From the UHGV virus genome UHGV-1402771: a stretch of DNA of 25,192 bases, one strand, 5' to 3'. The stretch's first letter is position 1; every line of letters begins with the position of its first letter. Of the stretch, positions 1 to 3,000 are shown in pieces. The DNA is from a virus. Made by a program: the position numbers.

Positions 1-3000
1 AACAATTCAGGGATTAATGGAAGATGGCAGACATCATTGATTCAGCATCAGAAATTGAAGAATTACAGCGCAATACAGCAATAAAAATGCGTCGTCTGAA
101 CTACCAGACTATATCCGCCACTCATTGTTGTGAGTGTGGCGATCCCATAGATGAACGAAGACGCCTGGTCGTTCAGGGTTGTCGGACTTGTGCAAGTTGC
201 CAGGAGGATCTGGAGCTTATCAGTAAACAGAGAGGTTCGAAGTGAGCGAAATTAACTATCAGGCACTGCGTGAAGCGGCAGTAGCAATTGAAACAGTAGC
301 AACGCCTCAAAAATTGCTGGCATTTCGTATGAAAGTCACACCTCAGGTTGTGCTGGCACTGCTGGATGAACGGGAAAGAAACCAGCAATACATCAAACGC
401 CGCGACCAAGAGAACGAGGATATTGCGTTAACGGTAGGGAAGTTGCGCGTTGAGCTTGAGGCAGAAAAACAGCGGGCAAAGGATCTGTTTATGGAAAATG
501 CTCGGCTTAAGTCAGGTATAGCCGGTCTGATACACCTCGGTATTCGATATGCAGATGTTGAGGTCATGAGAATTGCTGGAGATGCCCAGCTTTCTACCCC
601 ATGCACTGACAGCATCATAAACAGCATTGCAACAGGCATTCGCATCAAAGGAGAGTGATATGAGCGCTATAACCAAAGAACGTATCAAATTATTCATTAA
701 AAATCCGCTTGATAACGGACTTACTCGTGGCGAACAAATGGAACTGGCACGAATTGCACTGGCATCACTGGAAGCAAAACCAATAGGTGCATTCCACATT
801 GCAGAACAGCAAGTTGACGGCACAAGTGACTACCTCAAGGATGGAGAATGGCCTATTGATAATGGAATTATTGAGGTCTACGCCGCTCCCCCCGTTCCAG
901 TAGTACCGGAAGAAAAACCAATGCCTAATCCTCTTAGCATGTACGCGGTCGATGCTGTTGCCGCTATTGCAGAGGTGAGAGGCTGGAACGCCTGCCGTGC
1001 CGCTATGCTTCAGGGAAAAGGATAGTGATATGACCACTATAACCGATAAGAAACAGTATCCAGGCGAGCAATATCTTAATGAGCTAATCACCAACATAGA
1101 GTTTGCTGCAAGGGCACCAGTTGAAGTCGTGAGAGCGATGGCAGCAGAGCTACAGAAGCGGCGCGAAGCTGATAGAGCAGAACCTGTAAGCCAAACTTAC
1201 AAGTTGCCTCCCCTGTCATCCAACGAAGTAAACGACGCGGCATGGAAATTACACAACATGCTGACTGAACACGGCCCGCTAAATGGGCGTCAGTTCAACA
1301 ATCTGAAAGGTTGCTTCTATGAGGCATTAAAGGCCGCAATGCGCAACTCTCCGGTAACTCCGGATGGTTGGATAAGCTGTAGTGAGCGAATGCCCCCTCA
1401 AGATGATTGGATTTTAATTTATTCAAAGCACGGCGAGTATATGGCAGGACAGGTACAAGGGGAATACGTGGAGTTGAGCGACGGCACTTTATCGTGGTTA
1501 GGGAACGCCTTGTTCTGGATGCCGCTACCAGAACCGCCGCAGGAGGCGAAATGATGGATGTAAAAGAGAAGGTTTTGCAGGTGATGCGTTCCCGGGCTGC
1601 CCTGCAAGATAAAGCTCTCGGCGGGGAATATCCATTCAGGATGGCAACCTGGAATCTGCGGTTGGCAATGGAGAAGGAATTTCCTGATGAAGAATGGCGT
1701 TCGGCAGATTTGCGCAAAATTCTTATGGAGCTGGCTAAAGACGGAACAGTATCCAAAGATACCCATGCCAGCCGGATTGGTCAGGCGGTATGGAGACTGG
1801 AGGTGAGGTAATGGCTAACCTGCAACTTGCCGTTAAAGGTGAATACTTCGATGCCATGATTCGCGGAGAGAAAACGGAAGAGTATCGCCTGTGTAATGAC
1901 TACTGGAATAAGCGAATTATGTTCCGCGAGTATGACCGCCTGATTATCACAAAGGGATATCCGAAGCGCGACGATTCCAGCCGTAGAATTGATGTTCCGT
2001 ATGACGGATATGAAATCAAGACAATCACACATCCGCACTTCGGCGATAAACCGGTAAAGGTGTTCGCGATAAAGGTGAATATCAGCAATGAATAACAATC
2101 CTCGCATTCGCGGGGATTTCTTTTATCTGAACTCGCTACGGCGGGTTTTGTTTTATGGAGATGATAAATGCACTTCCGAGTCACAGGTGAATGGAATGGA
2201 GAACCATTCAACAGAGTTATCGAAGCAGAGAACATCAATGACTGCTATGACCACTGGATGATATGGGCGCAGATAGCACATGCAGACGTAACCAATATTC
2301 GAATTGAAGAACTGAAAGAACACCAAGCCGCCTGATGGCGGTTTTTTATTGCCTGATTTGCAGGTTCGATTCCCTATTTGGAGATAGCACTCATGCAACA
2401 CGAACTACAGCCTGATTCACTGGTTGATTTGAAATTCATCATGGCTGATACTGGCTTTGGTAAAACCTTCATCTATGACCGGATTAAGTCCGGGGACCTG
2501 CCTAAAGCCAAAGTTATCCACGGGCGAGCAAGATGGTTATATCGTGACCATTGTGAATTCAAAAATAAGCTCTTAAGCCGCGCCAATGGGTAAAATAGCG
2601 GGTAAAATATTTTTCACATCTAAAAAACACCATTCCAATCAATCCCCTGCCGCTTCAAGTAGATGTCTGCAGGGGACACCATTTATCAGTTCGCTCCCAT
2701 CCGTACCAGTCCGCAAAATCCCCTGAATATCAAGCCTTCCGTAGATTTACAGTTCGTCATGGTTCGCGTCAGATCGTTGACAGCCGCACTCCATGACGGG
2801 TAAAAAGTGGATAAAATAATTTTACCCACCGGATTTTTACCCATGCTCACCGTTAAGCAGATTGAAGCAGCAAAGCCGAAAGAAAAACCATACCGCCTTC
2901 TCGATGGTAATGGCCTGTACCTTTATGTCCCTGTGTCAGGGAAAAAGGTATGGCAGCTTCGCTACAAGATTGACGGTAAGGAGAAAATCCTGACCGTCGG

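What the first reader, a model, noticed from the sequence alone, without database searches (positions are those of the whole stretch)
2585..2845. Intact attP between xis and int shows this window is the phage-form genome
A 15-bp match to the argW tRNA-Arg 3' end (2668-2682) is flanked by GGGTAAAA arm-type repeats, direct on the xis side and inverted on the int side. Integration here would separate xis from int, so their adjacency means the window represents excised or virion DNA, not an integrated prophage; no host genes appear anywhere in the 25 kb. It also predicts the prophage order argW - int - acetyltransferase - tailspike.
Basis: partly seen in the sequence, partly recalled or inferred. 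Interest (0 to 1): 0.55.

Follow-up and report, generated by a model that had tools for sequence, protein, structure and literature searches.

The report
Known argW attachment site of K1 phage
The stretch is the intact attachment site (attP) of the well-studied IntS/TorI integration module that P22-like phages use to insert into the E. coli argW tRNA gene; it is real and working-looking, but ordinary and already described.

Summary
Confirmed and already known. Window 2585-2845 is the attP of the KplE1/HK620/Sf6/CUS-3 recombination module, carried here by a CUS-3-like K1 phage (endosialidase tailspike, neuO).

- **Core:** About 1,900 E. coli genomes split the query exactly there into attL (argW-intS) and attR (torI-dsdC).
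- **Proteins:** Xis is 66/66 identical to TorI (PDB 1Z4H). Int is 99% identical to HK620 and CUS-3 Int.
- **Published sites:** five TorI sites, four P' arm sites and the intS promoter map base-for-base onto the window.
- **Arm repeats:** GGGTAAAA is enriched (5 of 6 window copies lie here). The int side has two direct and two inverted copies, not only inverted ones.
- **Prophage order:** the predicted argW-int-acetyltransferase-tailspike order is seen in UTI89 and many K1 genomes.

The "phage-form, not prophage" inference is likely but not strict. Tandem double lysogens keep an intact attP inside the chromosome; 17 of 5,426 complete genomes carry one, and ET729 is a verified tandem.

In passing: a second 16-mer from argW (2358-2373) lies before xis. 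The CUS-3 GenBank record labels it the att core. No junction predicted by that labelling exists, yet the motif is positionally conserved before xis across genera.

The parts
2325..2344 (+). Intrinsic-terminator-like hairpin plus T run, closing the early-left gene block just upstream of the integration module
   Evidence: Homology between K-12 KplE1 and the phages begins just after it, at about 2344.
2358..2373 (+). TTGCAGGTTCGATTCC, identical to argW nt 46-61 (T arm). It is a conserved element 30 nt before the xis ATG. It is the sequence annotated 'attL/attR core' in the CUS-3 GenBank record, and it overlaps HK620's annotated cII site and pI promoter. It is not the crossover site.
   Evidence: Conserved position across genera. 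Junctions predicted if it were the core are absent.
2393..2593 (+). xis, the recombination directionality factor TorI/HkaC (66 aa)
   Evidence: 66/66 identical to TorI, PDB 1Z4H. PHROG excisionase family. Annotated torI in E. coli genomes.
2588..2607 (+). P-arm arm-type Int sites: two direct GGGTAAAA copies (2588-2595 and 2600-2607). The first overlaps the xis stop codon.
   Evidence: HK620 'attP' repeat_region maps to 2587-2609. The pair TGGGTAAA-N4-YGGGTAAAA is conserved from E. coli to Pantoea and Arsenophonus and in Klebsiella phage Chronis.
2637..2649 (+). Candidate IHF site AATCAATCCCCTG (one mismatch to WATCAANNNNTTR). Weak and inferred only.
   Evidence: such matches occur at about 1 per kb in the window. 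IHF is required in vitro for this module.
2643..2650 (+). TCCCCTGC, an inverted copy of the left half of the core, 16 nt to its left. Likely an Int core-type site, or one arm of a hairpin.
   Evidence: I21. The 16-nt spacer is invariant in 17 of 20 modules. Both-sided changes occur in Rouxiella (CCCCTACA/TGTAGGGG) and Edwardsiella (TCCCTGCA/TGCAGGGA).
2667..2682 (+). attP core CTGCAGGGGACACCAT: the last 15 nt of argW plus 1 nt. This is the identity block within which strand exchange must occur.
   Evidence: HK620 and Sf6 'attP core' features map here. The identical 16-nt core is published for KplE1.
2687..2714 (+). TorI (RDF) sites I1 and I2: CAGTTCGC at 2687-2694 and CAGTCCGC at 2707-2714
   Evidence: Motifs found. 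The published K-12 coordinates, motifs and 12-nt separation map here without gaps (A1).
2750..2777 (+). TorI sites I3, I4 and I5 (CAGTTCGT, TGGTTCGC, CAGATCGT; 2-nt spacers), abutting the -35 of the int promoter
   Evidence: Conserved in Klebsiella phage Chronis.
2777..2806 (+). int promoter (PintS): -35 TTGACA at 2777-2782, and a weak -10 at about 2800-2806 overlapping arm site P'1
   Evidence: for the sequence. Published mapping: P'1 overlaps the -10, and I4/I5 lie next to the -35. HK620 'prophage excision' promoter feature. The simple scan does not call it.
2798..2842 (.). P'-arm arm-type Int sites P'1-P'4: GGGTAAAA 2798-2805 (+), GGATAAAA 2809-2816 (+), GGGTAAAA 2820-2827 (-), GGGTAAAA 2835-2842 (-). 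The last abuts the int ATG.
   Evidence: Four P' sites with a conserved TAAA are published. HK620 repeat_regions map here.
2843..4000 (+). int, an IntS-type heterobivalent tyrosine integrase (385 aa)
   Evidence: Pfam Arm-DNA-bind_3, Phage_int_M and Phage_integrase. 380/385 identical to HK620 Int and 383/385 to CUS-3 Int.
4152..4171 (+). Terminator-like hairpin downstream of int
   Evidence: HK620 annotates a terminator for the excision transcript at the equivalent place.
4240..4953 (-). neuO-type hexapeptide O-acetyltransferase. It is the first cargo gene after int in the prophage. It carries 9 AAGACTC heptads (4886-4948), in frame.
   Evidence: CUS-3 neuO poly-psi annotation.
5107..8052 (-). 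Endosialidase tailspike with a P22 head-binding domain

Best explanation
Window 2585-2845 is the intact attP of the IntS/TorI (KplE1/HK620/Sf6/CUS-3-type) site-specific recombination module, carried by a CUS-3-like P22-family phage of E. coli K1.

How it works; most steps are inferred by near-identity to the experimentally characterised module.
- **Intasome:** IntS binds the arm-type GGGTAAAA sites (two in the P arm, four in the P' arm) with its N-terminal domain, and the core with its catalytic domain. Together with IHF this forms an intasome.
- **Integration:** strands are exchanged within the 16-bp identity CTGCAGGGGACACCAT shared with the 3' end of argW. Integration rebuilds argW from phage DNA. 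It leaves int (with neuO and the tailspike) next to argW at attL, and xis/torI next to dsdC at attR.
- **Excision:** this needs TorI, which binds five GTTCG-type sites between the core and the P' arm.
- **int expression:** because int is cut off from upstream phage transcription in the prophage, it has its own promoter inside the P' arm. That promoter is repressed by IntS and TorI.

Since the site is unrecombined here, the window most probably represents circular, virion or excised phage DNA, or a record written in that form.
For: Shown here:
- Core identity to argW and to attL/attR.
- About 1,900 of 5,426 E. coli genomes split the query at exactly 2667-2682 into intS/tRNA-Arg and torI places.
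- K1 genomes break at 2667 with tRNA-Arg | intS | acyltransferase | tailspike.
- An attB rebuilt from the attL and attR flanks exists uninterrupted at 416/416 identity in a natural genome.
- The arm repeat is enriched, 6 found against 0.57 expected. It is conserved in a 77%-identical Klebsiella phage and across Enterobacterales.
- Xis is 100% identical to TorI. Int is 99% identical to HK620 and CUS-3 Int, with arm-binding and catalytic domains.
- HK620 and Sf6 records annotate the same core, arm repeats and promoters.

From the literature:
- The 16-nt core, five TorI sites, four P' sites, the PintS overlap, the IHF/TorI/IntS in vitro reaction and the module's conservation in CUS-3 (PMC2951348).
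- attP lies between int and xis, so the two end up at opposite prophage ends (10.1101/2021.11.03.467220).
- The published K-12 coordinates map onto the window motifs without a gap.

For the phage-form reading:
- Three roughly 40-kb IMG/VR contigs carry the identical 91-nt attP.
- In the ten places shown from long contigs encoding the exact Int protein, int is next to yfdC/argW, not xis.
Against: - No experiment was done on this sequence; function is inferred from 96-100% identity.
- The exact cleavage positions inside the core are not known to me.
- IHF sites are only weakly predicted.
- The simple sigma-70 scan does not call the published promoter.
- The phage-form sub-claim cannot be separated from a tandem-lysogen junction using the window alone.
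Confidence: 0.93

Rival explanations
1. The window is chromosomal DNA from the junction between two tandemly integrated copies of the prophage (or an assembly of such a locus). The attP is intact although the phage is integrated.
For: ET729 has exactly this: dsdC-[torI...intS]-attP-[torI...intS]-tRNA-Arg-yfdC, with cores at three places. The K1-type strain SCAID URN1-2021 has torI-attP-intS-acyltransferase-tailspike inside its chromosome. 17 of 5,426 complete genomes hold an unsplit attP.
Against: It is rare: 17 of about 1,900 module-carrying genomes. The window has only phage genes over 25 kb, which fits both readings equally. Phage-form genomes with this attP are common among sequenced virions and viral contigs.
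Confidence: 0.07
2. The real attachment core is the other argW-derived 16-mer, TTGCAGGTTCGATTCC (2358-2373), as annotated in the CUS-3 GenBank record. In that case xis and 2585-2845 would lie outside the mobile unit.
For: The CUS-3 record CP000711 starts and ends with this 16-mer, labelled attL core and attR core. It is an exact 16-nt direct repeat of the argW T arm, beyond chance: the longest match in 100 shuffles is 13.
Against: - The phage-form junction this predicts (left flank plus an uninterrupted 31-nt tRNA piece) is absent from IMG/VR and from 185,579 species genomes. In phage records it is always interrupted by xis plus the P arm.
- The empty site it predicts (argW nt 1-61 joined to torI) occurs in 0 of 5,426 genomes.
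- The empty site predicted by the 2667-2682 core does exist.
- That crossover would destroy argW.
- Experiments on KplE1 and HK620 substrates use the other core.
Confidence: 0.01
3. The tRNA match and the repeats are chance features of an intergenic region with no recombination function.
For: None beyond the short length of the individual motifs.
Against: Enrichment statistics, exact breakpoints in about 1,900 genomes, conservation across genera, and the experimental literature.
Confidence: 0.005

Closest known systems
KplE1 (CPS-53) IntS/TorI recombination module of E. coli K-12 (Panis, Ansaldi et al.)
   Same: Same 16-bp core, a TorI protein identical in all 66 residues, and the same P-arm sequence. 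The window also carries the published five TorI sites, four P' arm sites and the int promoter in the P' arm. Same argW target.
   Different: KplE1 is a 10-kb defective remnant known only as attL plus attR. Here the two halves are joined as attP in a complete-looking P22-like phage with K1-specific cargo.
attP of coliphage HK620 and Shigella phage Sf6 (GenBank AF335538, AF547987)
   Same: 96-98% nucleotide identity over xis-attP-int. Core, arm repeats and promoters are annotated at the homologous positions. The order is xis-attP-int, followed by an O-antigen or capsule modification gene and then the tailspike.
   Different: A few point differences (for example CTGCCGC here against CTGCTGC left of the core). 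The cargo is neuO and an endosialidase instead of oac with an endorhamnosidase (Sf6) or the HK620 tailspike.
CUS-3 prophage of E. coli K1 RS218 (CP000711)
   Same: Closest phage record: 96.8% identity over 58% of the window. Same int (383/385), neuO with AAGACTC heptads, endosialidase tailspike and argW location.
   Different: That record is written in prophage form and is bounded by the T-arm 16-mer, so it lacks torI, the P arm and the true attR core. It has 19 heptads against 9 here. The early-left genes differ.
Lambda attP/Int/Xis
   Same: A heterobivalent tyrosine integrase, arm-type plus core-type sites, IHF dependence, and an RDF that directs excision (established knowledge).
   Different: In lambda, attP-int-xis stay together in the prophage, Xis sites lie in the P arm, and int is expressed from pI and pL with sib retroregulation. 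Here attP lies between xis and int, the RDF sites lie on the int (P') side, and int has an autoregulated promoter inside the att site.
P22 attP (thrW) integration module
   Same: Same phage family and the same genome neighbourhood (tailspike - conversion genes - integration module - early-left operon).
   Different: From my own knowledge of the P22 map (not tested here), P22 has the lambda-like order attP-int-xis and a different integrase and target tRNA.

Membership tests
KplE1/HK620/Sf6-type argW recombination module | 16-bp core CTGCAGGGGACACCAT identical to the argW 3' end and duplicated at attL and attR | tested here: met
   published core.
KplE1/HK620/Sf6-type argW recombination module | IntS-type integrase with an arm-binding N-terminal domain and a tyrosine recombinase catalytic domain | tested here: met
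   Pfam PF13356, PF22022 and PF00589. 99% identity to HK620 and CUS-3 Int.
KplE1/HK620/Sf6-type argW recombination module | TorI/HkaC recombination directionality factor | tested here: met
   66/66 identity to PDB 1Z4H.
KplE1/HK620/Sf6-type argW recombination module | Five TorI sites (GTTCG, GTCCG, GATCG) in two blocks between the core and the P' arm | tested here: met
   Motifs at 2689, 2709, 2752, 2762 and 2772. They match the published spacing and coordinates. Presence is by sequence; binding was not assayed.
KplE1/HK620/Sf6-type argW recombination module | Four P' arm-type sites containing TAAA, with P'1 overlapping the -10 of the int promoter, plus arm-type repeats in the P arm | tested here: met
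   Published description. HK620 annotation.
KplE1/HK620/Sf6-type argW recombination module | attP lies between xis and int, so that the two genes sit at opposite prophage ends | tested here: met
   Window gene order. Split places in genomes. Literature.
KplE1/HK620/Sf6-type argW recombination module | IntS plus IHF catalyse attP x attB recombination; TorI is required for attL x attR | not testable with these tools
   Shown in vitro for KplE1 and HK620 substrates, not for this sequence.
CUS-3-like K1 phages (P22-like, Lederbergvirus) | Endosialidase tailspike with a P22 head-binding domain, plus phase-variable neuO next to int | tested here: met
CUS-3-like K1 phages (P22-like, Lederbergvirus) | Genome-wide nucleotide identity to CUS-3 at species level | tested here: inconclusive
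   96.8% identity, but over only 58% of the window. The early-left and immI regions are mosaic.
Lambda-type module organisation (attP-int-xis kept together in the prophage) | int and xis on the same side of attP | tested here: not met
   xis is at 2393-2593, left of the core. int is at 2843-4000, right of it.

The most novel reading that the evidence does not exclude
The argW T-arm look-alike in front of xis (2358-2373; minimal conserved part GGTTCGATTCC) is not a dead relic. It may be a functional operator of the still uncharacterised xis/torI promoter. It would be bound by TorI (it contains the TorI-type GTTCG) or by the core-binding domain of IntS (it copies the attB half-site just left of the crossover). 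If so, the recombination proteins themselves would gate RDF production, and hence the excision decision.

The evidence does not exclude this. The motif sits 29-36 nt before the xis ATG in 10 of 19 diverged modules from eight or more genera, with unalignable flanks and a chance expectation of 0.05 hits. PtorI is called 'non-characterized' in PMC2951348.
Probability: 0.25. Interest if true: 0.35.

Novelty: already known. Interest (0 to 1): 0.12.

Why it matters
For the main finding, little is new. This module is one of the better-characterised non-lambda integration systems.

The practical value is in annotation.
- It fixes the true ends of CUS-3-type K1 prophages: argW core to the core after torI. 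The reference CUS-3 record stops 309 bp short and omits the excisionase gene.
- It gives a ready test (attP against attL/attR reads) for whether neuO-carrying phages are excising in K1 isolates.

The conserved tRNA-like motif before xis is a small lead on how RDF expression, the proposed master control of excision in this family, is regulated.

Tried and rejected
- **Ancestral contiguous tRNA piece.** I asked whether xis plus the P arm is an insertion into a once-contiguous 31-nt argW piece. A scan of IMG/VR for the contiguous 30-mer gave 120 hits. Of these, 111 are complete argW genes at prophage ends, 8 are cut by contig ends and 1 is a variant; none is a phage-form partial tRNA. The left flank plus contiguous piece is absent from IMG/VR and from the species genomes. 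No support was found. The cross-genus conservation argues for function rather than a relic.
- **CUS-3-record core as crossover.** Rejected.
- **HK620's 'cII site' reading of 2349-2361.** The spacing is TTGC-N5-TTGC, not the canonical N6. The second TTGC is not conserved in other genera. Left open and weak.
- **IHF consensus.** Only one-mismatch hits at the background rate.
- **Sigma-70 scan.** It does not call the published PintS. It calls ATGACG-16-AATAAT at 2793-2820 instead, which is uninformative.
- **Source of the window.** Not found at over 99.7% identity in phages, complete E. coli genomes or IMG/VR.
- **Papers not held.** Panis 2007 (JBC), Panis 2010 (Virology) and King 2007 (J Bacteriol). 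The P-arm, IHF and core-type site maps and the authors' reasoning on the CUS-3 ends could therefore not be read.
- **Small ORFs across attP.** The hkaB-like ORF at 2586-2726 (+) and the 54-aa ORF at 2686-2850 (-) lie on densely packed protein-binding sites. I treated them as unlikely genes and did not test this.
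Full report
**What the window is.** The 25-kb window is a P22-like (Lederbergvirus) genome segment.
- Early-left genes run rightward to 2335.
- Then come a 66-aa xis (2393-2593) and a 385-aa integrase (2843-4000).
- On the other strand lie a hexapeptide acetyltransferase (4240-4953), an endosialidase tailspike with a P22 head-binding domain (5107-8052), an immI-like region, and the DNA-injection, head and terminase genes up to the spanin.
- The closest phage record is CUS-3 of E. coli K1 RS218, at 96.8% identity over 58% of the window.
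- No tRNA gene is present, and no ORF that I tested looks chromosomal.

**Check of the observation.**
- argW, taken from an annotated E. coli locus, matches the window exactly at nt 61-75 = 2667-2681.
- With the following T, the block CTGCAGGGGACACCAT (2667-2682) is the only stretch shared by the window, an attL and an attR (alignment A1).
- GGGTAAAA occurs six times in the window against 0.57 expected, and five copies lie within 2588-2842.
- On the xis side there are direct copies at 2588 and 2600.
- On the int side there is a direct copy at 2798 and a degenerate direct copy (GGATAAAA) at 2809. Inverted copies lie at 2820 and 2835, the last abutting the int ATG.
- 'Inverted on the int side' is therefore only half the picture.

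**Junctions in real genomes.**
- A 581-nt query across the site hits 1,901 of 5,426 complete E. coli genomes.
- In nearly all of them it splits into two places. Query 1-303 lies under torI, and query 288-581 lies under tRNA-Arg/intS. The overlap is exactly 2667-2682.
- K1 strains (UTI89, NU14 and many others) match the window from 2667 onward with tRNA-Arg | intS | acyltransferase | tailspike.
- The UTI89 locus reads yfdC - tRNA-Arg - intS - acyltransferase - tailspike ... torI - dsdC.
- In the ten places shown from long contigs that encode the identical Int protein, int is next to yfdC/argW.
- An attB rebuilt by joining the host side of attL to the host side of attR exists uninterrupted, at 416/416 identity, in a natural genome. 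It is found in only 20 of 5,426 genomes, so argW is almost always occupied or rearranged.

**Identity with a characterised system.**
- The xis product is 66/66 identical to TorI (PDB 1Z4H).
- The integrase has the Arm-DNA-bind_3, central and catalytic domains. It is 380/385 identical to HK620 Int and 383/385 to CUS-3 Int.
- xis-attP-int is 96-98% identical at the DNA level to HK620, Sf6, N7, HF4s, IME10 and HK633.
- The HK620 and Sf6 records already annotate the attP core, the arm repeats, an integration promoter before xis and an excision promoter before int, all at the homologous positions.
- Panis et al. (PMC2951348) give the same 16-nt core for KplE1. They state that the module is conserved in CUS-3, HK620 and Sf6.
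- On attL they describe five TorI sites. These are GTTCG, GTCCG and GATCG motifs, in two blocks of 8-nt sites with 12-nt and 2-nt spacings.
- They also describe four P' arm sites sharing TAAA. P'1 overlaps the -10 of the int promoter, and I4/I5 lie next to the -35.
- Shifting their K-12 coordinates by the position of the int ATG puts the two blocks at 2687-2714 and 2750-2777. That is exactly where the window has CAGTTCGC, CAGTCCGC, CAGTTCGT, TGGTTCGC and CAGATCGT, followed by TTGACA at 2777-2782.
- The Kapi1 paper says in so many words that in these phages attP lies between int and xis, so the genes end up at opposite prophage ends.

**How it works.** These steps are inferred from the identity above, not assayed here.
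- IntS bridges the arm sites (two P, four P') and the core, with IHF bending the arms.
- Exchange within the 16-bp identity inserts the phage into the 3' end of argW. The tRNA is rebuilt from phage sequence.
- In the prophage, int is separated from the early-left operon and from xis. It is transcribed from its own weak promoter inside the P' arm, under negative control by IntS and TorI.
- Excision follows when TorI is made and binds its five sites on the int side. In lambda, by contrast, Xis binds the P arm.

**Comparative support.**
- A Klebsiella phage whose module is only 77% identical keeps both P-arm repeats, the four P' repeats, the TorI motifs and TTGACA.
- Twenty-four TorI-relative loci from species genomes were retrieved, from Escherichia to Pantoea, Edwardsiella and Arsenophonus. 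Most of those with a recognisable site keep TGGGTAAA-N4-YGGGTAAAA right at the xis stop, and a tRNA-3'-end core about 60 nt further on.
- They also share an inverted copy of the left half of the core, exactly 16 nt to its left (window 2643-2650 against 2668-2675).
- This inverted copy changes on both sides in Rouxiella and Edwardsiella. It is probably an extra core-type Int site, less likely a hairpin.

**Is the window phage-form DNA?** An unsplit attP excludes a single integrated prophage but not tandem copies.
- In strain ET729 the chromosome reads dsdC-[torI...intS]-attP-[torI...intS]-tRNA-Arg-yfdC. There are two copies with the same gene-by-gene annotation and three cores.
- A K1-type locus with torI-attP-intS-acyltransferase-tailspike sits inside the chromosome of SCAID URN1-2021.
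- 17 genomes in all have an unsplit site.
- Conversely, three roughly 40-kb IMG/VR contigs carry the identical 91-nt attP. One of them matches window 1812-8099 at 99.3%.
- I could not find the window's own source.
- I put phage-form (or a record written that way) at about 0.9 and a tandem junction at about 0.07.

**A second argW piece, and the CUS-3 record.**
- Window 2358-2373, TTGCAGGTTCGATTCC, equals argW nt 46-61. That is the piece of the tRNA that directly abuts the core. The longest chance match in 100 shuffles is 13 nt.
- It lies 20 nt before the xis ATG (its GGTTCGATTCC part begins 30 nt before it). It is identical in HK620, Sf6, ET729 and K-12.
- The CUS-3 GenBank record begins and ends with this 16-mer, labelled attL core and attR core. 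The record therefore lacks torI, the P arm and the real attR core.
- I tested that labelling:
  - The phage-form junction it predicts is absent from IMG/VR and from 185,579 species genomes.
  - In phage records that junction is always interrupted by xis plus the P arm.
  - The empty site it predicts occurs in none of 5,426 genomes.
  - The other model's empty site exists.
- So the 16-mer is a direct repeat but not the crossover.
- It is not mere debris either. GGTTCGATT[CT]C occurs once per locus, 29-36 nt before the xis ATG, in 10 of 19 diverged modules with otherwise unalignable flanks. The chance expectation is 0.05 hits.
- It contains the TorI-type GTTCG and copies the attB half-site next to the crossover. 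The torI promoter is described as uncharacterised.
- This is the only part of the locus that I would call an open question.

**Verdict.** The thing is a textbook member of a known, experimentally dissected module, already annotated in sister phages. Novelty: already known. Interest is low (0.12), with a modest side lead in the conserved motif before xis and a correction to the CUS-3 record's ends.

Noticed in passing
window 2358-2373: TTGCAGGTTCGATTCC equals argW nt 46-61, the tRNA piece that abuts the att core. It lies 20 nt before the xis ATG, and its GGTTCGATTCC part begins 30 nt before it. GGTTCGATT[CT]C is positionally conserved (29-36 nt before the ATG) in 10 of 19 TorI-type modules from several genera, with diverged flanks. 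It contains a TorI-type GTTCG. Its function is unknown, and the torI promoter is uncharacterised in the literature I could read.
   Followed up: partly
L002 1-16 and L169 693-708 (CUS-3 record CP000711): The CUS-3 reference record is bounded by the T-arm 16-mer, labelled attL/attR core. It therefore omits torI, the P arm and the true attR core. The real right end should lie about 309 bp further on. Junctions predicted by the record's labelling are not found anywhere I searched.
   Followed up: yes
window 2643-2650 vs 2668-2675: This is an inverted copy of the left half of the core (TCCCCTGC / GCAGGGGA-type). Counted as CCCCTGCN - N16 - TGCAGGGG, the 16-nt spacer is the same in 17 of 20 related modules. 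Both arms change together in Rouxiella and Edwardsiella. It is an extra Int core-type site or a hairpin; I could not decide which.
   Followed up: partly
window 4886-4948 (-), within neuO 4240-4953: There are nine AAGACTC heptads directly after ATGTC. This keeps the 237-aa acetyltransferase in frame, which I take to be the 'ON' phase. The CUS-3 record has 19 copies and no CDS. Among contigs with the identical Int, neuO products range from 111 to 279 aa, consistent with phase variation.
   Followed up: partly
L134 about 41560 (UTI89 attR): The attR core of the UTI89 prophage lacks one G (CTGCA-GGGACACCAT), while its attL core is intact. This might impair excision. I did not check how common it is, or whether it is a sequencing error.
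   Followed up: no
L007/L008 (E. coli ET729, NZ_CP100927.1 1.46-1.54 Mb); L133 (SCAID URN1-2021): ET729 has a tandem double lysogen of a P22-like phage at argW, with an intact attP between the copies. The SCAID URN1-2021 locus also shows an inverted duplication of nin and lysis genes next to the phage, possibly a misassembly.
   Followed up: partly
E. coli argW-dsdC junction (query): Only 20 of 5,426 complete E. coli genomes have the uninterrupted argW-dsdC junction. IMG/VR loci show many different sequences directly after argW, so the site is a crowded integration hotspot used by several unrelated elements.
   Followed up: partly
window 2586-2726 (+) and 2686-2850 (-): Small ORFs across attP are annotated as genes in sister records (hkaB / Sf6 gene 17). 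Klebsiella phage Chronis gp28 and Kapi1 hyp25 occupy the same int-attP interval; their equivalence to the minus-strand ORF was not aligned. All lie on densely packed Int and TorI sites and are probably not genes.
   Followed up: no
window 1-350 and 8153-10467: The left end (DksA-like zinc-finger gene) and the ant/arc immI-like region are not matched by CUS-3. This is ordinary lambdoid mosaicism. The 161-aa ORF at 9982-10467 belongs to a PHROG of unknown function.
   Followed up: no
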